A stretch of 59,960 nt of DNA from a virus (taxonomy: Duplodnaviria; Caudoviricetes). The translations under genes were made by a program, and so were the position numbers. Location of the stretch: positions 1 to 59,960 of the IMG/VR virus record IMGVR_UViG_3300021133_000004; one strand, given 5' to 3'. Below are positions 21,500 to 36,568 of this stretch, one piece after another (the first letter of the stretch is position 1; each line of letters starts with the position of its first letter). The notes beneath the pieces were generated by a model. That model had not been told where the DNA came from. It saw only the letters and a program-made list of their open reading frames with translations, and ran no database searches.

Positions 21500-21708
21500 T
21501 AAAAAGGAACTGCTCTGGTCATATATTGACGAATGACGATGGCAAGGAAATTCATCCACTCTTCGGATGTCATATCGTCAAAATTTTTGAACCCCATATT
21601 TTCCAGATAACAGCCGGCTGCATCGCTGGCATCATACAAAGCTTCAATTTCATAATCTTCAAATTTCCGATATTCAGAAACATCTATATTACCCAACATT
21701 CTGTTCAT
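21499..21708 (-). CDS. Small protein between helicase and primase (DUF6511-like)
   Basis: AAGCYLE..G..FDDMTSEEW..F motif. Coupled to both neighbours. Confidence 0.55.
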   Translation of the reverse strand: MNRMLGNIDVSEYRKFEDYEIEALYDASDAAGCYLENMGFKNFDDMTSEEWMNFLAIVIRQYMTRAVPF

Positions 21709-23288
21709 GGCAGCATGTACCCCATAATTTCGGTGTACTTTCCATTAGGACGCACCCGGATCTTCTTGGGAACTTCCAGAAACGCTGATCTCTTGACGGC
21801 TTCATTAGTATCGCGCGGCACTGGTGCAGTTTCCATAGTTCTATTGATCCACCATTTCACCGCTTTTTCGCCGGCATACCCAACATGCTCAAAGCATATC
21901 CATTCGCGGTACTGAACCAAACCACACTGATAGGTAACACACATGGACGGCGGCTTGCCGGGCTTGAAGTGGGCCGCATAGGTAACCTTGTCTACTTCTA
22001 CCCATTCGTTATTTATCTGGCTGGAAAGTAATGCATCGGTTGATGCCACCTTACTGATCTTGATTTCGCGTGGTGGGAACTCAAAACCGCAGTTTTTGCA
22101 TCTCAACGTACCCGCAGCGCATATCATTGCACATTTTGGGCAAACCTTGACTGGGGCCTCTCCTGGTTCCTCGTTGTCATCCTTTTTCTTAGATCCGCGA
22201 ACTGTGTCTACGGGACCGTGCCGGCGCGTGTTCCCCGCGAAGTCTAGAACCAGACAATCATCCTTGCCGTTGGCCAACCGCGTTCCACGACCCAGCATCT
22301 GCACATAAAGACCCTGAGACTTGGTCGGCCGCAGCATGCCGATCATGTCCACGCCAGGGGCATCGAAGCCGGTGGTCAGAACATTCATATTGGTGATGCA
22401 GCGGATATTGCCTTCCTTGAACTCGCGCAGAATCCTGTCGCGCTCCGGTGCCGGCGTATCGCCAGACACTGTTTCGCAAGTCAGACCTGCCGCCTTGATC
22501 AGATCCCGAACGTGCTTTGCGTGAGAGACACCAGCGCAGAAGACCAGCCATGAGCCCCTGTCCTGCCCGTGCTTTATCATTTCCGCGACTGCGGCGACAT
22601 TGGCTTCTTCCGTATCGACCGCCCTCTCAAGTTCGCCCGCAATAAATTCGCCGCCGCGCGTATGAACCCCGGTAACGTCCAGCGTCATGCTCGTTTGCTT
22701 CGGGATAAGTGGGACCAGATATCCCTGCTCAATCATGTCGAGCATATCTGCTTCGTAACAGATATCGGTAAACAGCGCGTCAACGCCGCTGGTAAGCATG
22801 CCCTGATCCATGCGGTAGGGCGTAGCAGTCAGGCCGATGATCTTCAGATCAGGATTAATATCTTTCAGGTCGCGCAGAAAGTTCCGATACATGCCGTTAT
22901 CGGACTTCTGCATCAGGTGCGCCTCGTCGATCATGACAAGGTCGCATTTCTGCACTTCATAGGCGCGGCGATGTATCGACTGAATGCCAGCAAACAGGAT
23001 CTGGCTGTCCATCTCGCGCTTGCCAAGGCCCGCGCTGTAGATGCCGGCCGGGGCTTCGGGCCAGGCGCGCAAGGCTGCGTTGAAGTTCTGCTGGATCAAT
23101 TCCTTCACATGGGTCAGGACAATGACGCGCGTATCGCGCCATGTGCCAAGTGACTCTTGCAAAAACTTCGCCAGCACCACGCTCTTGCCGGTGCCTGTAG
23201 GTAATACGATTAGTGGATTGCCGTCGTCTGACCGAAAGTATTCGTATATCGAATCAATCGCTTCCCGCTGGTACTTTCTTAGTTCCAT
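21705..23288 (-). CDS. SF2 DEAH helicase (YejH/RadD-like) with C-terminal zinc finger
   Basis: LRKYQ, PTGTGKS, DEAH, TAT, TGFD, QMLGRGTR, CPKC..CKNC. Start placed at MELRKYQ. Confidence 0.92.
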   Translation of the reverse strand: MELRKYQREAIDSIYEYFRSDDGNPLIVLPTGTGKSVVLAKFLQESLGTWRDTRVIVLTHVKELIQQNFNAALRAWPEAPAGIYSAGLGKREMDSQILFAGIQSIHRRAYEVQKCDLVMIDEAHLMQKSDNGMYRNFLRDLKDINPDLKIIGLTATPYRMDQGMLTSGVDALFTDICYEADMLDMIEQGYLVPLIPKQTSMTLDVTGVHTRGGEFIAGELERAVDTEEANVAAVAEMIKHGQDRGSWLVFCAGVSHAKHVRDLIKAAGLTCETVSGDTPAPERDRILREFKEGNIRCITNMNVLTTGFDAPGVDMIGMLRPTKSQGLYVQMLGRGTRLANGKDDCLVLDFAGNTRRHGPVDTVRGSKKKDDNEEPGEAPVKVCPKCAMICAAGTLRCKNCGFEFPPREIKISKVASTDALLSSQINNEWVEVDKVTYAAHFKPGKPPSMCVTYQCGLVQYREWICFEHVGYAGEKAVKWWINRTMETAPVPRDTNEAVKRSAFLEVPKKIRVRPNGKYTEIMGYMLP

Positions 23289-24012
23289 GACATGTTTCTC
23301 TATAGTTGCACCATTTACACGCAAACCAATTAGGGTCGTTTGATGTCTTCGCCAGCGGATACTTGGCTTCCAAAATGCGGCGGGCCTTGTCCTTGATGGC
23401 TTCAAAATCTTCGGGCACAAATTCTGTGCGGCAAGCGTCCCAGTCACGACCGCCGGGTGTTCCAACGGTCAGAAAGTGACGCTTCATTCCAGAATAGCCC
23501 ATGTAGCACTGCGCCTGGGCGTAGTAGACCGGATCCCATTCCTTCAGCGTTTTCTTTTCGCCGTTCTTCTGCTTGATGCTCTGGAACTTGGCGTATTTCT
23601 TTTCGTTGACGCACTTGCCTTCCCAGACATGCCAGGTGGCCGGCGCTTGGATCAGGCCTTTGATAATGCCGTCCATGTGGCCTTTGAACTTGCCATCAAA
23701 ATCCACGACTTCGAACTGGCGGCCGGTTTCAGGGTCCAGCGTCATGAACGTAATGCCCGGTATCAGGCGCAAACGCTCGCCCATCAAATCTTCTGTCCTG
23801 TGGCCGTCCGCGAACCGGCGCAGCGTAGCGGCGTCGAAGTTCTCAGGTTCAGGCTGGTGATAGCTGTACCAAAGCTTACGCGAGCATTCGTTGCCGATAG
23901 CCGACATGCCAAGATATTGGCGGCGCGGAGCGCGGGCTTCGCGCTCAACCATGGCTACATCTACTGCGGCAAGGTTTGGATCTTGAACTGGCGGTTGTGG
24001 AATAGCGACCAT
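23254..24012 (-). CDS. Cas4-like PD-(D/E)XK exonuclease
   Basis: MSAIGNECSRKLWY, GHMDG, WEGK, YAQAQCY and CKWC.Y...C, giving four Cys in a Cas4-type arrangement. Confidence 0.8.
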   Translation of the reverse strand: MVAIPQPPVQDPNLAAVDVAMVEREARAPRRQYLGMSAIGNECSRKLWYSYHQPEPENFDAATLRRFADGHRTEDLMGERLRLIPGITFMTLDPETGRQFEVVDFDGKFKGHMDGIIKGLIQAPATWHVWEGKCVNEKKYAKFQSIKQKNGEKKTLKEWDPVYYAQAQCYMGYSGMKRHFLTVGTPGGRDWDACRTEFVPEDFEAIKDKARRILEAKYPLAKTSNDPNWFACKWCNYRETCHGTKKVPAGSD

Positions 24013-24024
24013 GTGTTCCCCTAT

Positions 24025-24058
24025 AAAAAAGGGCCGGCTGTTACGCCGGCCCAATTTC
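24025..24058 (-). terminator. Intrinsic terminator after the DUF669 gene
   Basis: GGGCCGGC/GCCGGCCC stem followed by T6 on the - strand. Confidence 0.6.
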
Positions 24059-24544
24059 TTACGAACGCCTCCAGGGCGGCGCGCTGCTGGCTGCGGGAGC
24101 AGAAGGTGCCGAAGCGGCCGGCGCAGAACCACGCAAGGACTTGTAGCCCTTGATCTCGTTTTGGGCATCGCGATCGATACCGTTCTTATCGGGACCGGCC
24201 GGGCGAACCTTCAAACTGATGGTGAACTCTTTGAAGTAAAGCTGTTCAGTTTCCTTAATCTTTAGAACACCACAGGCGCGGCTGATCGAAGACATGGTCC
24301 TGAATGCGATATCAACGGCAGTGGGATTGCTGTTTTCGATGTTCAAACGCTCGAACAGCTTGCGGCCGCGATACTGGCCATCCGTGATTTCGATTTCCAT
24401 CCAGATGTAACGGCCAGACCCCGACTTGGTGTCGCGCCATTCGCTATTGATGATCTGGGCCGGGTAATCACCAGGCGGTATGGGTTCATAAGAACTGTTG
24501 GGTTCGATAGCTTCTGCGTCGAACATTGTGCTGAGTTGTACCAT
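24059..24544 (-). CDS. DUF669-family ssDNA-binding protein
   Basis: YEPIPPGDY, G.YRGRK.FERLN, NEIKGY and an A/P-rich tail ending PPW. Adjacent to Sak4. Confidence 0.8.
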   Translation of the reverse strand: MVQLSTMFDAEAIEPNSSYEPIPPGDYPAQIINSEWRDTKSGSGRYIWMEIEITDGQYRGRKLFERLNIENSNPTAVDIAFRTMSSISRACGVLKIKETEQLYFKEFTISLKVRPAGPDKNGIDRDAQNEIKGYKSLRGSAPAASAPSAPAASSAPPWRRS

Positions 24545-24546
24545 TT

Positions 24547-25320
24547 TCAGACTGCCTTCTTTTCAGTTTTGGGTTTTGCGTAGAACGGAATGCCAGAAGC
24601 GTAGGTATCCCAATCCATGGGAATCATGGGTTCAAGATTGAAACGCTGCTTGGCAAGGAATGCGGGGCGCTCTTCAGTGTACAACACGCGGTCGCCGCCC
24701 CCGACTGCCCGCGTGATCTTCTTGCCGAATCCCGCATCGGACTTGATGGTCGAAATGCGGTAGTTGGCAAACAAGACATTGTCCATGGCTTCCTGCAACA
24801 GGGCAGAAGCGCCTTTGTGGATCTTCGGAGTATACCGATCATAGGGCTCACTGTCGGGAGCCTCGAACCGGCTGATCTGGGAATGCGCGATCAGAATGAC
24901 AGACATCTTCTTGTCATCGCGCAGGGCGCGCAAACCATCGATCATGGCCCGCCACATATCCAGCGCAGCGACATAGCCCTTGCCGTATCCAGGTGCTTCG
25001 ATGTTGGCCCAACCGTTGTCCTTACAGGCTTGCGCCCAGACCAGCGGCTCCAGATGGTCCACGCTGTCCAGAACCAGCGTTTCATACTTGTGATCTTCCG
25101 AATAAAGAGATCCGATCGACTGCATGACCTCATCAAAGGTCCGAAGCATGCCGAAAGTATCGCGATCGATCAGACCCAGACCGTCTTCAGTCTGGAGAAA
25201 GATCGGCTTTGGTGCGCTGGCGGCGAAACTGGTCTTGCCGACGCCGTGTGGGCCGTAAATCATTCCCATGGGCGGCTTATTTGTCGCCCCTGATTTTACG
25301 TTAGCTAGAGAGATTGCCAT
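24547..25320 (-). CDS. sak4: Sak4-like single-strand annealing ATPase (AAA_24)
   Basis: YGPHGVGKT, TEDG, LVLDS, GYGKGY, ILIAH, YDRY and AKQR motifs. Confidence 0.85.
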   Translation of the reverse strand: MAISLANVKSGATNKPPMGMIYGPHGVGKTSFAASAPKPIFLQTEDGLGLIDRDTFGMLRTFDEVMQSIGSLYSEDHKYETLVLDSVDHLEPLVWAQACKDNGWANIEAPGYGKGYVAALDMWRAMIDGLRALRDDKKMSVILIAHSQISRFEAPDSEPYDRYTPKIHKGASALLQEAMDNVLFANYRISTIKSDAGFGKKITRAVGGGDRVLYTEERPAFLAKQRFNLEPMIPMDWDTYASGIPFYAKPKTEKKAV

Positions 25321-27082: not shown

Positions 27083-27625
27083 TTACTTAGGTCTGCGGCC
27101 CGCAGGAACATCCCGCTTGCCTAATACTTTGTAAGCTGTTGCAGGACGCCATCCGGGCATCAGGTCTATGGCCTCGGCCACGCTGAACTTAGGATTGCGC
27201 CAGATGATAGTAGCCTCACGGTTGCCCATCACGCCGTTATCCTTGCGCCGCTTCTCAGCCTTCTGGCGGGCAAGTTCGGCCATGTATTCCTTGGAGGGCT
27301 TTGGGGGATCAATGGCCGCGTTCAGCATCTGGACGCCATGTGTACGGCTATCTATTAGCGTTTCAACGTCCAGCACGGTAGCGCCCCACTCATGCACCAG
27401 CTTGACGGCTGCGCCCATCGCTCTGCGCCCCGGCCCGAAAGCCAGCAGCCCGTCCACGACACCCAGCGCCTCGCCCTGCCGCATCTTGAACTTGCCCAGC
27501 GTCTGCCCCTTGTCGGCGCGGTAAATCTGCCGAGGCGTCAAGCCAAAGGCTACAAGGCGCTCCGCATCCTTCTCGTGGCGGGCATAGCCTCTAATGACGT
27601 TTGGGACGAGTTTGGCGCTTTTCAT
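27083..27625 (-). CDS. Degenerate small serine recombinase (resolvase/invertase) homolog lacking catalytic residues, with C-terminal HTH
   Basis: By-eye alignment to Tn3/gamma-delta resolvase. IRGYAR is kept but the following VS is missing. QIY..DK is present. GEALGVVDGLLAFG replaces GD.(L/I).V..LDRLGR. The C-terminal RPATAYKVL resembles RSTVYKVI. Confidence 0.6.
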   Translation of the reverse strand: MKSAKLVPNVIRGYARHEKDAERLVAFGLTPRQIYRADKGQTLGKFKMRQGEALGVVDGLLAFGPGRRAMGAAVKLVHEWGATVLDVETLIDSRTHGVQMLNAAIDPPKPSKEYMAELARQKAEKRRKDNGVMGNREATIIWRNPKFSVAEAIDLMPGWRPATAYKVLGKRDVPAGRRPK

Positions 27626-27641
27626 GGAATATTTCTACTCG

Positions 27642-27672
27642 CATTGACAACCGTAGTCAATGGGTCTATTTA
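27642..27672 (+). promoter_or_regulatory. Promoter with an operator-like palindrome between the resolvase-like gene and the ORF array
   Basis: CATTGAC-N7-GTCAATG (27642-27662) overlaps TTGACA at 27644. CTATTT lies at 27666. Confidence 0.65.
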
Positions 27673-27700
27673 GAGGGCAAGAATTGAAGGAAGGGCCGCC

Positions 27701-28138
27701 ATGCGCCGCTTTAGTGTTTCCGCCCCATACGATCCCGCTTTGGACATTTACAATTCCAAAGAGGGGCGGAAAATGCTGGCGATATTCCAAAACGCGCCTA
27801 AATGGAAAAAGGAACTATGGCTTTCCAAGGCTCATACGACACGGAAGAAAAACAGCGCATCTGCTGTGAAGAAGGCAGACGCGATACGGCAAGCGCGCGA
27901 AGACGCAGAGAGGGATGCGGCGGAAACAGTCATTCTAGCCGTTTCGGCAATACAACACGCGCTGATGGCGTTGCAGGATACCCCCGCGCCGAATAATTTC
28001 AGAAAAAGTCTAAGCCCCCACGCGGTCCATAACGCCGTTTATGTACTGCGGAACAAGTGCGGTATCACGTTCCCCCCAGACGAGGAATTTTCGCGGCCCA
28101 TTAAGCTGGATCGCGTCCATCTATCAACTGAACAATAA
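27701..28138 (+). CDS. Hypothetical protein, array ORF 1
   Basis: 145 aa. Preceded by AAGGGCC. Ends STEQ* inside the junction motif. Confidence 0.6.
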   Translation: MRRFSVSAPYDPALDIYNSKEGRKMLAIFQNAPKWKKELWLSKAHTTRKKNSASAVKKADAIRQAREDAERDAAETVILAVSAIQHALMALQDTPAPNNFRKSLSPHAVHNAVYVLRNKCGITFPPDEEFSRPIKLDRVHLSTEQ

Positions 28139-28174
28139 GGGCCCCTTTCCCGCGAAACAATTCAAGGAAAATTT

Positions 28175-28480
28175 ATGTCGGAAAATATTCCTAAGTGGAG
28201 TGATGTTAAATTGCCTAAGTCAAGTGCAATGGCGATAGACATCAATGGATGGAAGTCCCAAATCTTTCTTGAAACAGAAGAACTAAAATCACAAGAAATA
28301 ATTGTTAATGCTATCAAAGTGTTTTTGGCAGAAATAAAGGCCGCAATAAATCATTCAACAATGTTCAACGATGAGTTAGCAGAGTATTCCGAAGGTGTAG
28401 TTAAATTGTTTCCTGATATGAATGAATGGAAACGCAGGTCTGTGTTCCCTAAAGGAAAGCAAAGCTGGCGGGATGACTAA
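28175..28480 (+). CDS. Hypothetical protein, array ORF 2 (AT-rich)
   Basis: 101 aa with an AAGGA RBS. Confidence 0.55.
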   Translation: MSENIPKWSDVKLPKSSAMAIDINGWKSQIFLETEELKSQEIIVNAIKVFLAEIKAAINHSTMFNDELAEYSEGVVKLFPDMNEWKRRSVFPKGKQSWRDD

Positions 28481-28526
28481 GAGTAACTTGTGTGTTATCT
28501 AGTCCGGGCCGATAGCAGGCCGACAG

Positions 28527-28751
28527 ATGACAACGTATGGCTTTGGGAAAGACGCCCCGTTGGGTAACTCGACGGCTATTGATCTTGTGGAGCGCTTGGT
28601 CGCTGCGATAGATGCTCAGAGAGCGCTTGATGCCGCCAAGGCCGCAGTTCCAAACTACACGGCGCAGTGGAGCGAGAAAGATTATTACCAGAACGAACTG
28701 CACGACAGGAATTTGGCCGCTGCTGAATTGCTGGCGATGTTGAAACTCTAA
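28527..28751 (+). CDS. Hypothetical protein, array ORF 3
   Basis: 74 aa. Its stop lies in the junction motif. Confidence 0.6.
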   Translation: MTTYGFGKDAPLGNSTAIDLVERLVAAIDAQRALDAAKAAVPNYTAQWSEKDYYQNELHDRNLAAAELLAMLKL

Positions 28752-28767
28752 TAAGGGCCGATTGACA

Positions 28768-29154
28768 ATGAACCGCGCAGAAGCCGAGAAAACAATTGAC
28801 GACTATGAAGCGTTGACCGCGAAGGCTGTTGAAATTCTCAACGGAGAGGGACCGCCTTGGGGCTACGTTGGAAACGCCGAATGGGCCCATCTGACGTTCG
28901 ACGGTGATGATGCAGTAGTCAGTCACCCTGACGCTGGAACTTATTACGACAGCATTACAATCGACACTGATACCGAGAGGTTTCCTGCCGCGCTACTATT
29001 CATGCCGGACGCCGAACTGAAAGCATGGAAGGTGGCGGCAAGGAAGTCTTATGACGAAGAACAGGAGCGCGATAGGCTCGCAAGGATAGCGGCGACTGAT
29101 GCCGCAGAGCGAGCGACTTTTGAAGCTTTAAAGCGCAAGTTTGAAACTGTTTAA
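28768..29154 (+). CDS. Hypothetical protein, array ORF 4
   Basis: 128 aa with C-terminal AERATFEALKRKF. Its stop lies in the junction motif. Confidence 0.65.
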   Translation: MNRAEAEKTIDDYEALTAKAVEILNGEGPPWGYVGNAEWAHLTFDGDDAVVSHPDAGTYYDSITIDTDTERFPAALLFMPDAELKAWKVAARKSYDEEQERDRLARIAATDAAERATFEALKRKFETV

Positions 29155-29167
29155 AAAGGGCCGCAAA

Positions 29168-29479
29168 GTGACCGAACATGCCATAAACCCGATAGATGAA
29201 GCTGAGTACGAAAATCTGCCATGGCTACATGTATATCCGCAGTACGCTTATCACAGCGAACTCAAGATCATCGGCAATGCTGTGGCGCTTCTGCATCTTG
29301 CGGACGCCCTGCGCGCAGCGGCGGAAACCGGAGCGGGAAAATCGTCTGGCATTACCAGCGACGGCGAGGGATTCCCCATTGAAATCTTGCGTACCAACAC
29401 AACCGGGTTGCGTTATACCTCTCTGCCATACACCGCAGAATGGGCGCGCGATCTGAACACAAACCCAACTGAACAATAA
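29168..29479 (+). CDS. Hypothetical protein, array ORF 5
   Basis: GTG start directly after the motif. LHVYPQ...H...IIGN..AL..L and SDGEG motifs. Ends PTEQ*. Confidence 0.6.
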   Translation: MTEHAINPIDEAEYENLPWLHVYPQYAYHSELKIIGNAVALLHLADALRAAAETGAGKSSGITSDGEGFPIEILRTNTTGLRYTSLPYTAEWARDLNTNPTEQ

Positions 29480-29489
29480 AGGCCACAAG

Positions 29490-29660
29490 ATGACTTTCAT
29501 TGAAATGCTTTTGTCTTTCACGCCTACATTATCGGCAACAGTAGAGAAAGATTGCAGCATCATTCGCATAGAGTTTGGTGGCAAAGACGCCACCAAGCAG
29601 ATGAACGCTACATGGAACGCTCTGCATGATGAGATTGAAGCCGAAGCAAACGAACAATAA
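29490..29660 (+). CDS. Hypothetical protein, array ORF 6 (56 aa, not in the ORF track)
   Basis: MTFIEMLLSFTPTL...EAEANEQ* fills the space between two motif copies exactly. Confidence 0.6.
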   Translation: MTFIEMLLSFTPTLSATVEKDCSIIRIEFGGKDATKQMNATWNALHDEIEAEANEQ

Positions 29661-29670
29661 GGGCCACAAG

Positions 29671-29877
29671 ATGCTATTTGTCAGCCTCATTCGCGGATTG
29701 GTGTTCTACGTCGTGCTGTTGGCGCTCGGAACGGGGCTTGGCTGGCTGGTGCTGCCCTGGCGCTACGACATGTCTGTCGGGTCGCCTCACATGATGATGG
29801 CAATGATAGGCGGAGGTGTGACGCTGATCCTGGCTGTCGTTGTTGTTCTCTCATTCGCCACCACAAACATTCACTAA
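29671..29877 (+). CDS. Small two-TM membrane protein, array ORF 7
   Basis: MLFVSLIRGLVFY..., two hydrophobic helices, bounded by motif copies. Confidence 0.6.
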   Translation: MLFVSLIRGLVFYVVLLALGTGLGWLVLPWRYDMSVGSPHMMMAMIGGGVTLILAVVVVLSFATTNIH

Positions 29878-29888
29878 GGGCCAAGCAG

Positions 29889-30077
29889 ATGACCACACCA
29901 CGCGCCTGCAACACGCCCGAATGCGGCGAAGAAGCAACCGGCGATTTGTGCGACGGCTGCCGGGATAACCTGCTGGCGCCGGCAGAAGAAGCCATAGACG
30001 ACCCGATAGGTCGTGCCCTGGACAACGCCAGAGACAGGCACGAAGAAGAAAGCTTGTGGCAGGAGTTCGGTCAGTGA
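29889..30077 (+). CDS. Small Cys4 zinc-finger-like protein, array ORF 8
   Basis: CNTPEC...CDGC with an acidic tail. Confidence 0.55.
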   Translation: MTTPRACNTPECGEEATGDLCDGCRDNLLAPAEEAIDDPIGRALDNARDRHEEESLWQEFGQ

Positions 30078-30131
30078 GTGTCGTAAAAAGCAGCGATTGC
30101 CCACAATGACTATGCCGGATACAATTCTTAT

Positions 30132-30293
30132 GAGAGAGCGGCGCGGAAAGCAGACGCGCAAGATGCCGGGTAGCGACTGTAGCTCATCGGGGCGGCGAAA
30201 GCCGGAGAGCAGGTCGGCCAGTCTACGGTTCAACTCCGTAGGTCGTCCGGAACAAAGGCCGAAAGTGGGGGTCGCGTCCCACCTCTCTCACCA
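30132..30293 (+). ncRNA. Non-canonical tRNA-like RNA with a second tRNA-like fold in place of the anticodon arm
   Basis: Acceptor GAGAGAG/CTCTCTC followed by A-CCA. D arm GCGC-GGAAAGCAGAC-GCGC. T-like arm GTGGG-GGTCGCGT-CCCAC. Inner element 30173-30246 has TAGCTCA...GAGC and TACGG-TTCAACT-CCGTA. Confidence 0.65.
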
Positions 30294-30318
30294 CCTCCCA
30301 CAATAAAGCGAGCGCCTG

Positions 30319-30414
30319 ATGCCTGATTTCTGGACCGACGACCGTATAGCCACGCTGAAATAGATGCGCCAGAACGGTTGCAGTGCCACTCGCTCAACAT
30401 CTTCATCCGTGTAA
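30319..30414 (+). pseudogene. gcrA: GcrA-like N-terminal remnant with an in-frame TAG
   Basis: MPDFWTDDRIATLK*MRQNGCSA resembles the GcrA start (WTDERV..LK.LW..G.SA). Similarity ends near 30388. Confidence 0.55.
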
Positions 30415-30415
30415 G

Positions 30416-30679
30416 TCATTTTTCCTCCAGCGCGGCGTCGATCATTTTTTCCCACGCGGCCTTTGCCGCCATGTCGCCAATGGTTTTTGTCCCATACGGC
30501 TTGTAGTCCTTGTCAGCCAAATGGGCAGATGGGGAGACATCCCCCCCGGCCATATACATGGCACCCGTAGGCTCCCGCATGGCGGCAATGGCGGCGCGGG
30601 CTAGACTTTTGGGATTATAATAACCGGGTTCGTAAACGTCATTGATAGCCTTCGCCACCCGTTCGATCATGTTGGTCAT
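30416..30679 (-). CDS. Hypothetical phage protein
   Basis: MIERVAKAI...ARAAIAAMREPT..M...W..MIDAAL, a motif typical of alphaproteobacterial phages. Confidence 0.7.
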   Translation of the reverse strand: MTNMIERVAKAINDVYEPGYYNPKSLARAAIAAMREPTGAMYMAGGDVSPSAHLADKDYKPYGTKTIGDMAAKAAWEKMIDAALEEK

Positions 30680-31143
30680 ATCTTCGCTCCATACGCCGCG
30701 ATCAAAGCGGCATCGCTCCTGCCGTCGTCTTTTTTACGCTGAAACAATTCTGCCCGCGCCGGGAACATCTGCATCGCCCGCTCGCGCGATCCGTCCTTGC
30801 CATCACGCACCTGCATGGCCTTCTGCCAAGTTTGCGGCGTGATGATGGTGACAGGAATATTGAATGCCGCCAGCACACCTTCCAGGATGCCGGTAGAACG
30901 CCCAAACGAAAACACACTGGTCACGCCCTGACCCGGCATCGCATTCACGCGCTCCAAGTAAGCGTGTGAGACCTGCCTTCCTGCCACGATCGTGCTTACT
31001 CCGCTGGCGCAGACTTCGCGCTTGGATTTCTTGTTCCTCACAACATCCACCGTGGGCATGTCGTAAACCACCAAAGTCTTTTCGATGGTGTTATAGAACG
31101 CAAACGCGCCGTTCAGGCCGGGATCTATTCCTAGAATTATCAT
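30676..31143 (-). CDS. ruvC: RuvC-like Holliday junction resolvase
   Basis: ILGIDPG, YLERV..MPGQGV.S.FSFG, PQTWQK and DGRSDAALIA motifs. Confidence 0.85.
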   Translation of the reverse strand: MIILGIDPGLNGAFAFYNTIEKTLVVYDMPTVDVVRNKKSKREVCASGVSTIVAGRQVSHAYLERVNAMPGQGVTSVFSFGRSTGILEGVLAAFNIPVTIITPQTWQKAMQVRDGKDGSRERAMQMFPARAELFQRKKDDGRSDAALIAAYGAKI

Positions 31144-31445
31144 TTCTGACATTCCCTGATGCAAGCGGCATAGCCGGCGATATCAATCGCCGAATCCTGA
31201 TGATCTGGCGTTTCCATAAGCCGGGCAAGCTTTAAAGCAGTCATGCACATCGCCACCTGAACCGGCGTGACCGGATGCTCCAGCAGCGTAGACCACAACG
31301 CCGCGATGCGCTCATGGTTTTTCAGGATTGGGCCATAGTGCCGGCCGCGCTCCGCTATCGTTCCAAAAGCGTCCAAGAGCATTGACGCACCCGGTTTCAA
31401 TTCCTCATGCACCCCGTGATGGTGCGACACCGCCATCTTTTTCAT
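31140..31445 (-). CDS. DUF6378-like protein
   Basis: ERG..YG, RIA.LWS, K.AR and DS..DIAGYA motifs. Confidence 0.75.
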   Translation of the reverse strand: MKKMAVSHHHGVHEELKPGASMLLDAFGTIAERGRHYGPILKNHERIAALWSTLLEHPVTPVQVAMCMTALKLARLMETPDHQDSAIDIAGYAACIRECQK

Positions 31446-32700
31446 GGCCGCGCCTTGCGGGATAAAGCGGCAAGGAAGCAAAGCCCCTGCGATGCCATTT
31501 CGGATTCGGTCTGCCGGGCATGTGCTATGCCCATTTCATAACCGTTCCTGTACGCCTGGCCAACATCAAGGGCGCGGGCATTCAGGTTATGTACGAACAA
31601 CGCTCCCGCCAGACAAAAGCCTATGCCGGCACCAAATAACAATCTGATCATCACTTTTCCTTCCGGCCCTCTAGCAGAGCGCGTTCCATTAGCCGGTAAA
31701 TCAGCGCGCGTTCTGGCCCGCTAAATCCGGTCCACATGGTATCACTGATTTCTTCGGCCGCAATCTTGTTGACCAGCAGCCATTGCCGCTCATTTTCCAG
31801 ATTGGATTTAATTCCCCAGAACATTGAATATATCCTGACCGCCTGCGAAGCGTTTCAATTGTTTTTCCATACTAGATACCTTCCTGCCGAAAGGTTCATT
31901 CTTGCTCTTATGCAGCGTCAAGGCATATGTCGCGCCGTCTTCGCGCTGGAATACAAGCTTGTAGTGCTTGCTTCGATCTTCCAGCCCTAGGCATTTCAGC
32001 CCGTGCCTTTCGCCAAAACTTCGCAACTCCCTTTCGATCTTCATTTTATTCCGGCCTTCTTATTCCATTCATCGCGCGTTGGCGTGTAATGATAGATGGC
32101 ATGCAACAGGTTATCTATGTCACCACGCACCACTTCGCTCATGCACTGCACATCTTGCAACCTCGAAACAAAGTGGAGCATTTCAGTGTAAAATATTTCC
32201 TGCGCGCGTTCTTCCCGCAGCCGCTGGTAACGGTCTATCTCAGGTTCCGGCTCGCAGCCTGGAAAATATTCAATTGATCCCATGATCACCGCTCCGCGCG
32301 AAACAGCACCGCTTTAACGTGCAGCTTTGCATTCGCCAGCCGGTGTTTGTTCTCTTCCGTCTCCGGTACACCCATCCATGCATAGGCCTCGGACAATGCA
32401 ACGGCCAGCCAATGGCAATCGATGCAACCCTCGGGTTCCGGTTCATCCATCATCTTACTTAGCATTGCACAATCCTTTCGCAGCCTTCAGCACGTTTCGC
32501 GCCTGTGTCAGTGTTTCGTTGAAATAGGTTTCATACTCATGCCCATAGAAATCGCGCGGATCGCATTCCACCGCCGCCAGCATTTCATCCAGCGCCTTGT
32601 AAAGGTCCGCCGCCTGGCGCTCCAGAACGTAGGCATACTTATTCAAATTATGAATATCCATTTCGTAAGTCTCCACGATGTTATCGAATGCACTGATCAT
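31442..32700 (-). other. Run of small hypothetical genes (31442-31654, 31808-32044, 32041-32289, 32455-32700)
   Basis: Short, co-oriented, mostly coupled ORFs with no recognisable domain. Confidence 0.5.
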
Positions 32701-35614: not shown

Positions 35615-36568
35615 TTAAGCGTTAGCGGCTTTACTAGTCCGCCGATAAGTCAGGCGCTTTCCGGCGATGCCAGCAAGAGCCTTTTCGGCGCGCATCGCAT
35701 CATCAATGCCGAACGCGGATCGGGTGTTAGCGCGAAAATCAAACTCAGCAAGGTAGCGGTCAAGATGCTGTTCGCCACAATGTTGATACGTCCCAACCAT
35801 GCCGCGCTTAAACACGCTGAAAAATCCTTCCAACGTATTAGTGTGAACCTTGCGGCCAGCCTTACCTTCGCGGACGTATTCCTTGTTGTGGTCAACCGCT
35901 TCATGGATGCGGACGAGGCCGGTACGGGTATAAAGACCCGAACCATCCGTATGCAGGATGCTAGCGGGATGAACGTTAGCGGCGAGAATGTCTTTGATGG
36001 TGATCTTGGTGGCGTCTTTGACGCGCTTGGAGCGAACCTTGCCGTCACGTTCCACAAGGCTAACAATCTTCATCTTGTGGCCCATGCCGCCCCAAGGCTT
36101 CCTGCCGCGCTGGTTGTCGGCCTTACCGATGTAAGTTTCATCGGCTTCAACAATTTTGCCTTCGCCGCCAAGCGGGCCAGCATCGGTACCCGTGGGCTTC
36201 ATGCCTTCGCGGATACGGTGGGCCATGAACCAAGCGGTTTTGTAAGTGACGCCCAACATGCGGCTTAGCTGGTGGCTGGAAATGCCTTTCTTGGACGAGC
36301 AAAGCAGGTGAGTGGCAAACAGCCACTTGCTGATCGGAACATGGCTGCGCTCGTACAGGGTGCCAACGCGGACGGTGAACTTCTTGCGGCAGTCGCCACA
36401 GTGGTACCAGCCAGCCCCCAGCGCGCCCGTGGCGGCCAGGGCCTTGGCTTCCCCAATCTGGCCGCAGAACGGGCAAATGACCCCATCCGGCCAGCGCTGG
36501 GCTTCCAGATAGGCGCGGGCCTTATCTTCGTCTTGAAAGAGGGGGTTTTGAGCGGTTCCAGCGGCCAT
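35615..36568 (-). CDS. IS1595-family (ISXO2-like) DDE transposase
   Basis: RWPDG..CP.C zinc ribbon, YKTAW..HRIR, VEADETY, HTD, HTNT.EG and YL.EF.FR.N motifs. Confidence 0.96.
   Translation of the reverse strand: MAAGTAQNPLFQDEDKARAYLEAQRWPDGVICPFCGQIGEAKALAATGALGAGWYHCGDCRKKFTVRVGTLYERSHVPISKWLFATHLLCSSKKGISSHQLSRMLGVTYKTAWFMAHRIREGMKPTGTDAGPLGGEGKIVEADETYIGKADNQRGRKPWGGMGHKMKIVSLVERDGKVRSKRVKDATKITIKDILAANVHPASILHTDGSGLYTRTGLVRIHEAVDHNKEYVREGKAGRKVHTNTLEGFFSVFKRGMVGTYQHCGEQHLDRYLAEFDFRANTRSAFGIDDAMRAEKALAGIAGKRLTYRRTSKAANA

What the first reader, a model, noticed from the sequence alone, without database searches (positions are those of the whole stretch)
27083..30293. Candidate new system: dead serine-resolvase homolog, divergent promoter, motif-joined gene-cassette array and terminal structured RNA
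Seen in sequence: eight small unrelated ORFs run opposite to the surrounding early arm. Nearly every junction carries the same motif, which usually contains the upstream stop codon and leads into the next start. Copies are AATTGAAGGAAGGGCC (27682), CAACTGAACAATAAGGGCC (28125), a weak CCGGGCC (28504), AACTCTAATAAGGGCC (28744), AACTGTTTAAAAAGGGCC (29145), CAACTGAACAATAAAGGCCACAAGATG (29466), AACGAACAATAAGGGCCACAAGATG (29649) and AACATTCACTAAGGGCC (29866). As a result three unrelated proteins end in STEQ*, PTEQ* and ANEQ*. The rest of the genome uses ordinary AGGAG-type ribosome-binding sites. The array sits behind one promoter facing away from a resolvase-fold gene, which is the layout of an integron (recombinase, promoter, cassettes) but without IntI or attC hairpins. 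Inference: these are exchangeable single-gene cassettes. They could be shuffled by a recombinase acting in trans or now lost, or by Sak4-mediated annealing at the short repeat.
Basis: partly seen in the sequence, partly recalled or inferred. Interest (0 to 1): 0.88.

Follow-up and report, generated by a model that had tools for sequence, protein, structure and literature searches.

The report
Phage gene-cassette array with linker motif
A lake phage carries a row of small, unrelated genes joined by one short repeated stop-and-start signal beside a disabled recombinase-like regulator, and related phages in nature differ from it exactly at those joints.

Summary
The window is a complete 59,960-bp phage genome. 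Eight small + strand ORFs (27701-30077) lie between - strand early genes. Seven of their eight junctions carry (stop)+AAGGGCC/AAAGGCC, followed 2-8 nt later by the next start; the eighth is a weak CCGGGCC. The divergent 180-aa gene has a small-serine-recombinase fold. It lacks the nucleophile Ser (0 of 65 homologs keep it) and D67/R68/R71, so it is a DNA-binding protein, most likely the operon's regulator.

The motif recurs in arrays next to homologs of this regulator in freshwater, soil and marine phages that otherwise share no genes: 64 junction motifs in 31.7 kb on the coding strand, against 3 on the opposite strand. Breakpoints fall on it. A 99.9%-identical contig has one extra 74-aa cassette bounded by a direct repeat of the motif. 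In contigs of four lake metagenomes, 8 of 11 breakpoints lie within 3 nt of a motif core.

My reading is that this is a Shine-Dalgarno-containing start-associated sequence that also acts as the short-homology linker for cassette gain, loss and replacement. No integrase, attC site or active resolvase is present. The 'terminal structured RNA' is not supported. It is a new variant of known kinds (PeSL shuffling, SAS, boundary sequences).

The parts
27083..27625 (-). 180-aa protein with a small-serine-recombinase (resolvase) fold: catalytic-domain-like N-terminal part, long helix and C-terminal three-helix HTH. It is catalytically dead and is the likely regulator of the divergent promoter.
   Evidence: AF2 model pLDDT 86. 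The top Foldseek hits are all gamma-delta, Tn3, Sin or Gin recombinases (E 6e-6, prob 1.0). hhalign against gamma-delta resolvase gives E 3.3e-4. GYAR is kept, the Ser10 stretch is replaced or shortened, and D67/R68/R71 align to L/A/P. 0 of 65 homologs have Ser in register. No Pfam or PHROG hit.
27642..27672 (+). Divergent control region. It holds the palindrome CATTGAC-N7-GTCAATG (27642-27662), which overlaps a sigma-70-like promoter: TTGACA 27644-27649, 17-nt spacer, TATTTA 27667-27672.
   Evidence: The sequence is. The palindrome was reported as a stem. The same layout (TTGACA/TAGACA/TTGTAA, then GTCAAGG or GCAAGGGG, then TATAT) is seen in most related loci by eye. The scan tool itself did not call this promoter.
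27691..27697 (+). Motif copy M1 (AAGGGCC), 3 nt before the ORF1 ATG at 27701.
   Evidence: Homology to L016/L017/L021 ends at 27698. An X4 contig joins a different upstream cassette here.
27701..28138 (+). Cassette ORF1, 145 aa, ends in STEQ. A long-helix protein of unknown function.
   Evidence: 62 homolog representatives. AF2 pLDDT 87.5. No Pfam hit and no PDB fold match.
28137..28143 (+). Motif copy M2, containing the ORF1 stop. No start follows at the usual spacing.
   Evidence: In L015 a 240-bp unit (a 74-aa ORF plus one motif copy) sits exactly here between two AAGGGCC copies. Contigs of X2, X3, X4 and X6 end or diverge at 28140-28145.
28175..28480 (+). Cassette ORF2, 101 aa, GC 37% against 54% for the genome. 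It has its own leader with an ordinary AAGGA site.
   Evidence: Its 99%-identical homolog cluster is seen on 31 contigs.
28504..28510 (+). Weak motif copy M3 (CCGGGCC), upstream of the ORF3 ATG at 28527.
   Evidence: X3 and X4 contigs diverge after 28513.
28527..28751 (+). Cassette ORF3, 74 aa.
28753..28759 (+). Motif copy M4, 2 nt before TTG 28762 and 8 nt before ATG 28768.
   Evidence: X2, X3 and X6 contigs end at 28759. X2 has a joint 28759->29474 with 191 other letters between.
28768..29154 (+). Cassette ORF4, 128 aa (130 aa from TTG 28762).
   Evidence: Four homolog clusters at 56-62% identity.
29156..29162 (+). Motif copy M5, 5 nt before GTG 29168.
   Evidence: X2 and X3 contigs carry other sequence up to 29156.
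29168..29479 (+). Cassette ORF5, 103 aa, ends in PTEQ.
   Evidence: In an X2 contig it stands as a unit from 29156 to 29484 between other sequences.
29478..29484 (+). Motif copy M6 (AAAGGCC), 5 nt before ATG 29490. It is part of a 27-nt repeat shared with M7.
29490..29660 (+). Cassette ORF6, 56 aa, ends in ANEQ.
29659..29665 (+). Motif copy M7, 5 nt before ATG 29671.
   Evidence: X2, X3 and X6 contigs end at 29665. X2 has a joint 29665->30381.
29671..29877 (+). Cassette ORF7, 68 aa, hydrophobic and probably a membrane protein.
   Evidence: 'Membrane' is my reading of the sequence.
29876..29882 (+). Motif copy M8, 6 nt before ATG 29889.
29889..30077 (+). Cassette ORF8, 62 aa, Cys-rich N-terminus.
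30078..30380 (.). No RNA gene is supported. The right border of the variable block is at 30381.
   Evidence: Contigs of X3 and X4 carry other sequence up to 30381.

Best explanation
This is a regulated, hypervariable accessory-gene operon of a freshwater phage. A catalytically dead protein with a small-serine-recombinase fold (27083-27625) sits back to back with a conserved sigma-70-type promoter and a palindrome. I infer that it is the repressor or autoregulator of that promoter, as Tn3/gamma-delta resolvase is at res (recalled). The promoter drives eight small, unrelated single-gene cassettes.

Each cassette ends in a short motif, (T)RRGGCC(G), here mostly TAAGGGCC. The motif holds the cassette's stop codon and a Shine-Dalgarno-like RRGG, and it lies 2-8 nt before the next start. 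It is therefore a start-associated sequence that couples translation of neighbouring cassettes (function inferred).

Because the motif is the only sequence that neighbouring cassettes share, it is also where crossovers happen. Cassettes are gained, lost and replaced by short-homology recombination or replication slippage within the motif, possibly helped by the phage's own Sak4 annealing protein and DUF669 single-strand-binding protein.

Shown here: the motif's local and lineage-wide enrichment, its strand bias and its spacing to starts, and the position of natural breakpoints on it. Inferred: the role in translation, the enzyme or process that makes the crossovers, and the repressor role.
For: Fold and dead active site. 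No serine or tyrosine recombinase domain is found anywhere in the complete genome (PF00239 and PF00589: 0 matches).

The motif is local to the array in the window and in the complete genome G001.

Across 29 arrays (the window plus 28 loci, 31.7 kb), there are 64 RRGGCC-N2-9-start junction motifs on the coding strand against 3 on the other strand. The far side of the regulator gene has 12 and 6 in 44 kb. The rest of the window has 15 and 15 in 56.6 kb. Eighty unrelated viral loci have 0.15 per kb against 2.0 per kb in the arrays.

An unbiased count of hexamer strand asymmetry ranks AAGGGC (50 against 7), AGGGCC (44 against 6) and GAGGCC (29 against 4) among the top hexamers.

Of 62 distinct junction motifs, 49 precede ATG. 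Spacing is 2-8 nt with a mode of 4. In 43, the stop of an upstream ORF lies within 9 nt, often fused to the motif as TAA-G, TAG-G or TGA-GG.

Breakpoints. L015 is 99.9% identical up to the end of M2, then has a 240-bp one-ORF unit, then rejoins the window at a second AAGGGCC. L016/L017 and L021 are 100% identical up to the end of a motif copy and unrelated after it. Homology between the window and L016 ends at M1, and homology between L036 and L039/L040 ends at a motif copy. In contigs of four lake metagenomes from four studies, 8 of 11 distinct breakpoints are within 3 nt of a motif core and 10 of 11 within 6 nt. These include a replacement of ORF4+ORF5 between M4 and M6, and ORF1 and ORF5 found in other contexts joined at M1, M5 and M6.

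The extended junction repeats of 17-27 nt give unrelated proteins the same C-terminal residues, as expected if crossovers recur inside a linker. Cassette GC ranges from 37 to 61%, which points to mixed origins. Sak4 and the DUF669 SSB are encoded 2-3 kb away.
Against: The conserved core is only 6-7 nt (up to 11 with CAATAA), which is short for efficient homologous recombination.

If breakpoints are assumed to be confined to non-coding junction bases, the excess at the motif is modest: 8 of 11 against 37% expected, P = 0.017. Selection for intact genes explains part of the coincidence. BLAST alignments also run through any shared motif, so a crossover can be placed only to within the motif.

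The metagenome evidence comes from contigs, not reads, and the output tables were cut (27 loose ends and 64 pieces were not shown).

L009 has an 85%-identical regulator but only one junction motif, and 5 of 29 arrays have none, so the motif is not obligatory for the module.

The CC after RRGG is not explained by pairing to the canonical anti-Shine-Dalgarno sequence (recalled), and the host and its 16S rRNA are unknown. The scan tool did not call the promoter. Nothing here was tested experimentally.
Confidence: 0.55

Rival explanations
1. The motif is only a local variant of a stop-plus-ribosome-binding-site signal for translational coupling. It plays no part in recombination. Cassettes are exchanged by random illegitimate recombination, and only joints at gene boundaries survive selection.
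For: RRGG sits where a Shine-Dalgarno site would be, 2-8 nt before mostly ATG starts. The phage's other genes use the related AAGGAG or AAGGA. Junctions are so tight that the motif fills much of the non-coding space: 80 of 217 junction bases lie within 3 nt of a core, and under that null P is only 0.017. A published view holds that most phage mosaic joints lack boundary sequences and arise by illegitimate recombination (PMC3029335, introduction passage read).
Against: All joints examined keep exactly one clean motif copy with no scars. In the two long junctions (28139-28174 and 28481-28526), the breakpoints still fall at or within 3 nt of the motif, apart from 28176. The L015 indel is bounded by a direct repeat. 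Extended 17-27-nt identity reaches into the last codons of unrelated ORFs. This view also does not explain why GGCC is kept in arrays of phages that share nothing else.
Confidence: 0.2
2. The motif is a DNA (or RNA) binding site of the dead resolvase-like protein. It would be a set of one-orientation sites through the operon, like the 'stoperators' of mycobacteriophage L5, that let the regulator silence the whole array.
For: The regulator is the only gene shared by all these loci, and the motif travels with it. The conserved promoter spacer carries a similar CAAGGGG or CAAGGGCC element (in L010 it is an exact AAGGGCC). The motif is strictly one-stranded.
Against: The tight 2-8-nt spacing to start codons and the ATG preference point to translation. 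The authors of the Cluster K paper argued the same for SAS against stoperators (PMC3203893, passages read). L009, with an 85%-identical regulator, has one junction motif. Soil-type arrays use TGAGGCC while their promoter element stays CAAGGG or CAAGAG, so the two do not co-vary. Resolvase-type proteins bind inverted repeats as dimers (recalled). The junction motif is not an inverted repeat, whereas the promoter palindrome is.
Confidence: 0.12
3. This is a true site-specific cassette system, a functional analogue of an integron. An unidentified recombinase acting in trans (from the host, a co-infecting element or a lost gene) recognises the motif and inserts or excises cassettes.
For: The layout matches: regulator or recombinase-like gene, outward promoter and one-orientation promoterless cassettes, each ending in the repeat. 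Joints are precise at the repeat. Two regulator homologs are fused to a T5orf172/MUG113 domain (precomputed Pfam labels; I recall this domain as GIY-YIG-related).
Against: No PF00239 or PF00589 domain is present in the complete genome. The resolvase-like protein lacks its nucleophile in all 65 homologs that could be scored. No conserved partner gene lies near the module. There are no attC-like inverted repeats at cassette ends. A 6-7-nt asymmetric core is smaller than known recombinase sites (recalled).
Confidence: 0.08
4. The repeats are chance or recent local duplications, with no function and no link to the regulator.
For: The window-wide count of AAGGGCC equals chance (11 against 11.3). 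A 14-base version of the motif hits at least 119 unrelated viral contigs, which is of the order expected by chance (the expectation is my estimate).
Against: The motif clusters in the array. It recurs in 24 of 29 arrays whose regulators are 41-100% identical and whose genes differ. The chance hits in unrelated contigs never cluster: at most 2 in any 3 kb across 80 loci.
Confidence: 0.02

Closest known systems
PeSL (promoter-early stem-loop) regulatory cassettes of T4-type phages (Arbiol et al. 2010, PMC2839356, abstract and outline read; Comeau et al. 2014, PMC4122927, search listing only)
   Same: Short repeated regulatory motifs lie between small non-essential ORFs in a hyperplastic region. 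The insertions, deletions and replacements that distinguish close relatives end at the motifs. The motif therefore has a gene-expression role and, secondarily, a recombination role.
   Different: A PeSL is a sigma-70 promoter plus a terminator stem-loop, so each ORF is its own transcription unit. Here the motif is a 6-11-nt stop/Shine-Dalgarno element inside one operon, with no promoter or terminator at the junctions. It is also tied to a conserved regulator gene. Mini-circles were shown for PeSLs and could not be tested here.
Start-associated sequences (SAS) of Cluster K mycobacteriophages (Pope et al. 2011, PMC3203893, passages read)
   Same: Both are asymmetric conserved words 3-7 nt upstream of mostly ATG starts, in one orientation, and confined to non-structural genes. 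Both contain a Shine-Dalgarno core plus conserved positions that rRNA pairing does not explain. The upstream stop sometimes lies inside the motif, and the motif is associated with genes of different families.
   Different: The sequence differs: 13-bp GGGATAGGAGCCC against (T)RRGGCC(G). SAS are scattered over half a genome, were not reported as recombination joints in the passages I read, and are not linked to a resolvase-like regulator. The supplementary figures of that paper were not seen.
Integron (IntI, attI, Pc, attC cassettes); features recalled, not read here
   Same: One outward promoter beside a recombinase-fold gene. Promoterless single-gene cassettes lie in one orientation, each carrying the repeat at its 3' end. 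Cassette content differs between close relatives, with joints at the repeat.
   Different: There is no tyrosine recombinase and no attC hairpins. The neighbouring gene has a serine-recombinase fold and is dead. The repeat also serves as the ribosome-binding region.
Short conserved boundary (linker) sequences proposed for lambdoid phage mosaicism (as summarised in PMC3029335, passages read; original papers not read)
   Same: Homologous recombination at short conserved sequences at gene boundaries is the proposed source of modular exchange.
   Different: That paper notes that such sequences cannot be found at most mosaic boundaries. Here one is found at 7 of 8 junctions in the window and in 24 of 29 related arrays, and it overlaps the translation signals.
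Tn3/gamma-delta resolvase acting as repressor at res between divergent tnpR and tnpA (recalled; the gamma-delta resolvase sequence was taken from F plasmid NC_002483)
   Same: The fold is the same. Both genes lie next to a divergent control region with inverted repeats.
   Different: There is no nucleophile Ser, no D67/R68/R71 and no Pfam Resolvase match. No transposase partner is linked. Repression has not been tested.
Stoperators of mycobacteriophage L5 and Cluster A (mentioned in PMC3203893; details recalled)
   Same: Many copies of a short asymmetric site lie in short intergenic spaces, in one orientation relative to transcription.
   Different: Stoperators are repressor sites with no fixed spacing to starts (recalled). 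Here the spacing is tight, and binding by the regulator is untested.

Membership tests
Small serine recombinases (resolvase/invertase) | Fold: N-terminal alpha/beta catalytic domain, long E helix and C-terminal helix-turn-helix | tested here: met
   AF2 pLDDT 86. The top Foldseek hits are all gamma-delta, Tn3, Sin, Gin or Hin-chimaera recombinases over the full length: E 6e-6 to 1e-2, prob 1.0, TM up to 0.68 on the catalytic domain.
Small serine recombinases (resolvase/invertase) | Sequence match to the Pfam Resolvase model PF00239 | tested here: not met
   No hit even at E <= 10. No PF00239 match anywhere in the genome, while the control genomes were positive. A profile search of PDB sequences found no recombinase. 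Only hhalign against gamma-delta resolvase gave E 3.3e-4, probability 38%.
Small serine recombinases (resolvase/invertase) | Nucleophile Ser (Ser10 of gamma-delta resolvase) after the GYAR motif | tested here: not met
   GYAR is followed by HEKD where gamma-delta has VSTSQQS, and the stretch is about 7 residues shorter. 0 of 65 homologs with a recognisable motif have Ser in register; 8 of the 73 could not be scored.
Small serine recombinases (resolvase/invertase) | Catalytic Asp/Arg cluster (D67, R68, R71 of gamma-delta) | tested here: not met
   In the hhalign alignment they face L61, A62 and P65 of the window protein (VVDGLLAFGP). The numbering comes from the translated F-plasmid gene. The catalytic role of these residues is recalled.
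Integron | IntI-type tyrosine recombinase next to the array | tested here: not met
   PF00589 has 0 matches in the complete genome, and all 14 control genomes were positive.
Integron | attC sites (imperfect inverted repeats that fold as hairpins) at the 3' end of each cassette | tested here: not met
   The inverted-repeat scan of 27600-30300 found 10 pairs, and no arm pair recurs at the cassette ends.
Integron | Single outward promoter with promoterless cassettes in one orientation | tested here: inconclusive
   The eight ORFs lie on one strand. A conserved sigma-70-like promoter was seen by comparison but was not called by the scan, which did list weak promoter-like sites inside the array. 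There is no transcript data.
Integron | Cassette content varies between relatives, with joints at the recombination site | tested here: met
Start-associated sequences (Cluster K mycobacteriophages) | Asymmetric conserved word a few nt upstream of start codons, one orientation, mostly ATG | tested here: met
   62 distinct junction motifs: spacing 2-8 nt, 49 before ATG, 64 on the coding strand against 3 on the other.
Start-associated sequences (Cluster K mycobacteriophages) | The 13-bp consensus GGGATAGGAGCCC | tested here: not met
   The motif here is (T)RRGGCC(G). The SAS consensus is as printed in PMC3203893.
Start-associated sequences (Cluster K mycobacteriophages) | Conserved positions that pairing with the 3' end of 16S rRNA does not explain | not testable with these tools
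   The host and its 16S rRNA are unknown. Against the canonical anti-Shine-Dalgarno sequence (recalled), RRGG can pair but the following CC cannot.
PeSL regulatory cassettes (T4-type phages) | Composite early promoter plus terminator stem-loop | tested here: not met
   No terminator-like site at any junction. The promoter-like hits in the array are weak and do not coincide with the motif, except one overlapping 28740-28769.
PeSL regulatory cassettes (T4-type phages) | Indels and replacements between close relatives that end at the repeated motif | tested here: met
PeSL regulatory cassettes (T4-type phages) | Excised mini-circles carrying one cassette | not testable with these tools
   All four runs laid were contigs, not reads.

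The most novel reading that the evidence does not exclude
This may be an integrase-free phage counterpart of the integron. The portable module would be a dead-resolvase repressor plus a strong early promoter, found in otherwise unrelated freshwater, soil and marine phages. It would recruit single-gene cassettes from a shared pool. The 6-11-nt stop/Shine-Dalgarno linker would be maintained partly by gene-level selection: cassettes that carry it are the ones that can hop between arrays through short-homology annealing (Sak4-type) or slippage. The cassettes themselves would be a large untapped set of early host-takeover or counter-defence genes, findable by using the regulator and the linker as markers.
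Probability: 0.33. Interest if true: 0.85.

Novelty: new variant of a known kind. Interest (0 to 1): 0.72.

Why it matters
The idea that phage mosaicism runs through short conserved linker sequences at gene boundaries is old. It has been hard to test because such sequences are missing at most boundaries (PMC3029335, passage read). Here a linker is present at nearly every boundary, and it recurs across many uncultured phages. Natural populations also show single-gene swaps, a replacement and an insertion/deletion at it.

This makes the question directly testable by co-infection and passaging, motif recoding and Sak4 knock-outs. It also gives a practical handle: the regulator family (73 clusters, no Pfam family) together with the motif marks hypervariable early operons full of unknown small proteins. 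Finally, it is an example of a serine-recombinase fold that has lost catalysis across the whole family while keeping its place beside a divergent control region.

Tried and rejected
The terminal RNA was rejected. ARAGORN, Rfam at gathering score and at E <= 10, and folding of the whole stretch and four sub-windows gave nothing above shuffles. I considered a partial tRNA or attP reading because of a T-arm-like hairpin near 30222-30240 (my reading), but no integrase is encoded and I did not follow it further.

Restriction-site avoidance or targeting of GGCC was rejected: 448 sites observed against 502 expected.

Searches that found nothing:
- Nucleotide search of the GenBank phage collection.
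- An exact 21-mer from a junction in viral contigs.
- Close relatives of ORF4 and ORF5 in viral contigs.
- Relatives of the regulator in one-genome-per-species bacterial and archaeal contigs, so no host could be named.

The 14-base pattern scan of viral contigs gave at least 119 single hits. By my rough estimate that is of chance order, and I used those loci only as a negative control.

ORF1 was folded (pLDDT 87.5) but has no PDB fold match and no Pfam family. Pfam and PHROGs were blank for all eight cassettes. No gene is conserved on the far side of the regulator gene (in one search seven loci were dropped beforehand as duplicates, or as a weak match in the case of L014).

Literature searches for a described dead-resolvase phage regulator or for this motif system found nothing relevant: listings only; passages of PMC5744446, where the resolvase and the repressor are separate genes. 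A search for 'Sak4' in PMC3945230 found no occurrence. I did not run complex prediction, because no protein-protein binding claim is made.

In read laying, parts of the array without cover in some runs are not evidence of absence. Depth differences, such as the higher summed depth over ORF2, were not used.

Rows dropped before counts:
- L008, because it is the same contig as L009.
- L014, a 29%-identity partial match.
- In some searches, the duplicate or near-empty arrays L016, L028, L032, L039 and L041.
- The array limits (the 'ends' table) were set by eye.

Full report
WHAT THE WINDOW IS. The window is a complete virus record of 59,960 bp with a 99-bp direct terminal repeat. A nucleotide search of the GenBank phage collection found no match. 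A codon-usage model trained on its long ORFs gives 86 genes. The finding lies in the early/replication arm. On the - strand are a primase (18857-21559, DUF3987), a helicase (21705-23465), a DUF669 single-strand-binding protein (24059-24544), a Sak4-like annealing protein (24547-25320) and, past the finding, a RuvC-like resolvase (30676-31164) and a methyltransferase. No tyrosine or serine recombinase domain is detectable anywhere in the genome.

THE OBSERVATION. Eight + strand ORFs (27701-30077) are supported by the codon model and interrupt the - strand arm. AAGGGCC occurs 11 times in the window, which is the chance number (11.3), but 6 of the 11 lie in these 2.2 kb. TAAGGGCC occurs 6 times, 4 of them here, and I read the other two as lying inside ORFs. 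The 17-mer of the ORF1 junction, allowing up to 3 mismatches, occurs 3 times, all here, against 0.14 expected. The repeat finder gives families of 20-27 nt linking the junctions at 28125, 29144, 29466, 29647 and 29864. ORF1, ORF5 and ORF6 do end in STEQ, PTEQ and ANEQ.

Elsewhere the phage uses (T)AAGGAG, AAGGA or GGAG. RRGGCC lies within 17 nt of a candidate start for 6 of 8 array genes against 4 of 78 others. The junction after ORF1 is the exception that turns out to be informative: the motif is there, but ORF2 has its own 31-nt leader with an AAGGA site. ORF2 is 37% GC in a 54% GC genome.

THE TERMINAL RNA. Nothing supports it. There is no tRNA or tmRNA and no Rfam family at gathering score; at E <= 10 the best hits have E 3 and 8. 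Folding energies are no better than shuffles for either strand or for any of four sub-windows. The stretch is the variable tail between convergent units. A small - strand ORF with a GGAGG site reads 30419 down to 30288.

THE NEIGHBOURING GENE. The 180-aa protein has no Pfam or PHROG match even at E <= 10, and a profile of 34 homologs finds no recombinase among PDB sequences. Its AlphaFold model (pLDDT 86) nevertheless matches only small serine recombinases at the top of the PDB search: gamma-delta and Tn3 resolvase, Sin, Gin and a Hin chimaera, over the catalytic domain, long helix and HTH (E 6e-6, prob 1.0).

I took the gamma-delta resolvase gene from the F plasmid. Profile alignment gives E 3.3e-4. 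GYAR is conserved, but the next residues are HEKD where the enzyme has VSTSQQS. The residues facing D67, R68 and R71 are L, A and P. Among 73 homolog clusters, 65 have a recognisable GYAx motif, and none has Ser in the nucleophile position; the residues there are E 29, A 12, K 11 and others. It is a DNA-binding protein. Its place next to a divergent control region recalls resolvase acting as repressor at res (recalled).

THE CONTROL REGION. Between the two genes lies CATTGAC-N7-GTCAATG (27642-27662), overlapping TTGACA (27644-27649), a 17-nt spacer and TATTTA (27667-27672). The scan tool did not call this promoter because the second hexamer ends in A; it reported the palindrome only as a stem. 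The same arrangement is visible at the same place in most related loci: a -35-like hexamer, then GTCAAGG or GCAAGGGG, then TATAT. That conservation is my basis for calling it the array promoter. The regulator's own 5' side is also conserved and lacks a clear Shine-Dalgarno site. A leaderless transcript is possible, but that is inference only.

RELATIVES. Scans with the protein and with its alignment gave 6 viral loci and 28 metagenome loci, from freshwater, soil or rhizosphere, and marine records, with 29-100% identity to the regulator. Nucleotide homology to the window is confined to the regulator gene and promoter (27077 to about 27664 or 27698), except in L015. None of the window's other early proteins is encoded nearby in the relatives, apart from one methyltransferase in L034. 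The relatives share no gene with each other on the regulator's far side. The regulator plus promoter is therefore a portable module.

On the promoter side every locus has a run of small ORFs, and almost none are shared. The exceptions are near-identical loci, one cassette found first in L010 and second in L021 (46% identity), and an internal duplicate in L022.

THE MOTIF IN RELATIVES. The motif recurs in those arrays, in front of different genes. Counting RRGGCC followed 2-9 nt later by a start that opens at least 30 codons gives:
- 64 on the coding strand of 29 arrays (31.7 kb) against 3 on the opposite strand;
- 12 and 6 in 44 kb on the far side of the regulator;
- 15 and 15 in the other 56.6 kb of the window;
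- 0.15 per kb in 80 unrelated viral loci, against 2.0 per kb in the arrays.

24 of 29 arrays have at least one. In the complete 62.7-kb genome G001 (regulator 52% identical), all 5 forward AAGGGCC hits lie within about 4.2 kb downstream of the regulator homolog. A motif-blind count of hexamer strand asymmetry ranks AAGGGC (50 against 7), AGGGCC (44 against 6) and GAGGCC (29 against 4) among the top hexamers, so the GGCC part is real and not an effect of my pattern.

The 62 distinct junction motifs precede ATG in 49 cases, at 2-8 nt (mode 4). In 43 cases the stop of an upstream ORF lies within 9 nt and is commonly fused to the motif: TAA-G, TAG-G or, in the soil group, TGA-GG. First genes of arrays often carry the motif with no stop before it, so the motif is start-associated rather than stop-associated.

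BREAKPOINTS. L015 is 99.9% identical to the window through the regulator, promoter and ORF1, up to the last base of M2. It then has 240 bp that the window lacks (spacer, a 74-aa membrane-like ORF, stop and a second AAGGGCC), and then rejoins the window. The difference is one cassette bounded by a direct repeat of the motif. L016/L017 and L021 are identical for 288 nt, up to the end of a motif copy, and unrelated after it. Homology between the window and L016 ends at M1, and homology between L036 and L039/L040 ends at a motif copy.

Twenty-four public runs hold part of the array. I laid four lake and freshwater runs from four studies, all kept as contigs. Their contigs break, or are joined to other sequence, at these places:
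- 27691: ORF1 is preceded by the last cassette of the L026-type array.
- 28140, 28143 and 28145: at M2.
- 28513: 3 nt after the weak M3.
- 28759: at the end of M4. In X2 this is joined to 29474 with 191 other letters in between, so ORF4+ORF5 are replaced.
- 29156: at the start of M5.
- 29474 and 29484: at M6. ORF5 stands as a unit from M5 to M6 between other sequences.
- 29653 and 29665: at M7. In X2, 29665 is joined to 30381.
- 28176: the one breakpoint away from a motif copy of the window.

Eight of 11 distinct breakpoints are within 3 nt of a core and 10 of 11 within 6 nt. P is about 2e-9 if breakpoints could fall anywhere in the array, and 0.017 if they could fall only on non-coding junction bases.

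Four cautions apply. These are contigs, not reads. The tables were cut. Alignments run through any shared motif. Selection for whole genes pushes joints into the junctions regardless.

HOW IT MOST LIKELY WORKS. The tight spacing to starts, the ATG preference, the RRGG core and the fused stop codons indicate a translation signal. I read it as a start-associated sequence giving termination-reinitiation coupling along one operon (inferred). Its closest parallel is the SAS of Cluster K mycobacteriophages, whose authors reached the same tentative reading and also could not explain the flanking conserved bases.

The clean, scar-free joints, the direct-repeat indel and the 17-27-nt junction identities that reach into the last codons of unrelated proteins suggest that the motif is also where crossovers occur. 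The process could be replication slippage for deletions, or short-homology annealing between co-infecting genomes for swaps. Sak4 and an SSB are encoded close by and are natural candidates, but nothing here shows that they act. This two-in-one logic, an expression signal that doubles as a recombination linker, is what was shown for PeSLs in T4-type phages. It is also the old boundary-sequence idea.

The dead resolvase cannot be the recombinase. I take it to be the switch of the operon. Why GGCC is kept is unexplained. Possible reasons are a factor that reads it (the regulator, a host protein or an RNase) or gene-level selection on cassettes that can recombine.

RIVALS. The rival readings are selection only (0.20), an operator or stoperator-like site of the regulator (0.12), a true site-specific system with an unknown enzyme (0.08) and chance (0.02). 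Their evidence is set out in the Rival explanations section.

WHAT THE CASSETTES ARE. Their function is unknown. ORF1 has 62 homolog representatives and a confident long-helix model, but no fold or family match. ORF4 has four homolog clusters. The near-identical ORF2 cluster is on 31 contigs. Pfam and PHROGs are blank for all eight. Their position (early, behind a strong regulated promoter, hypervariable) fits host-takeover or counter-defence genes, by analogy with anti-CRISPR operons and their Aca repressors (recalled). This is a guess.

NOVELTY AND VERDICT. The layout resembles an integron but fails its defining features. The protein has the resolvase fold but fails the catalytic features. 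The motif behaves like an SAS and like a PeSL but is neither in sequence nor in composition. My two literature searches and one follow-up reading found no description of this module, and the family has no Pfam model. I rate it a new variant of a known kind, with interest 0.72.

Noticed in passing
window 35615-36568 (-): An IS1595-family transposase gene (DDE_Tnp_IS1595 plus zinc ribbon, E 4e-30) sits inside the phage genome. It may be an insertion sequence resident in a phage.
   Followed up: no
L026 1327-1473 and L028 948-1127 (locus coordinates): Downstream of a full regulator gene only 48% identical to the window's, these contigs carry a second, partial copy that is 94-95% identical to the C-terminal part of the window's regulator. 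It looks like a remnant left when the regulator-promoter module was replaced.
   Followed up: partly
homolog proteins P0051 (283 aa) and P0073: Two regulator homologs carry precomputed Pfam labels PF10544/PF13455 (T5orf172/MUG113) at the C-terminus. This would fuse the dead-resolvase DNA-binding module to a putative nuclease-type domain.
   Followed up: no
window 28175-28480: ORF2 is 37% GC in a 54% GC genome, has its own leader with an ordinary ribosome-binding site, and its 99%-identical cluster is seen on 31 contigs, one of them 52 kb. In other lake contigs its start is preceded by a GAGGCC-type motif instead (loose ends at 28176).
   Followed up: partly
window 30288-30419 (-), border at 30381: A small - strand ORF (43 aa from the ATG at 30419, GGAGG 5 nt upstream, start overlapping the stop of the 30416-30679 gene) changes sequence at 30381 in contigs of other samples. 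The window's copy may be a hybrid made by the event that set the right border of the variable block.
   Followed up: partly
window 27626-27640 and the same place in L009-L042: The 5' side of the regulator gene (GTAGAAA..TTCCATG in gene orientation) is conserved across relatives and has no clear Shine-Dalgarno site. A -35/-10-like pair on the - strand would start the transcript at or near the ATG (my reading), so the mRNA may be leaderless.
   Followed up: no
window 24024-24055 (+): One AAGGGCC outside the array is part of a G+C-rich hairpin (GGGCCGGC...GCCGGCCC) and is not at a gene start. It is unrelated to the junction motif.
   Followed up: no
window 32045-32065, upstream of the - strand gene 31808-32044: An AAGGCCGGAA word lies just upstream of this early - strand gene's ATG. 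It is one of only 4 of 78 non-array genes with an RRGGCC word near a start.
   Followed up: no
L022 array 94-345 and 459-665 (array coordinates): Two cassettes of one array are 64% identical paralogs, which points to cassette duplication within an array.
   Followed up: no
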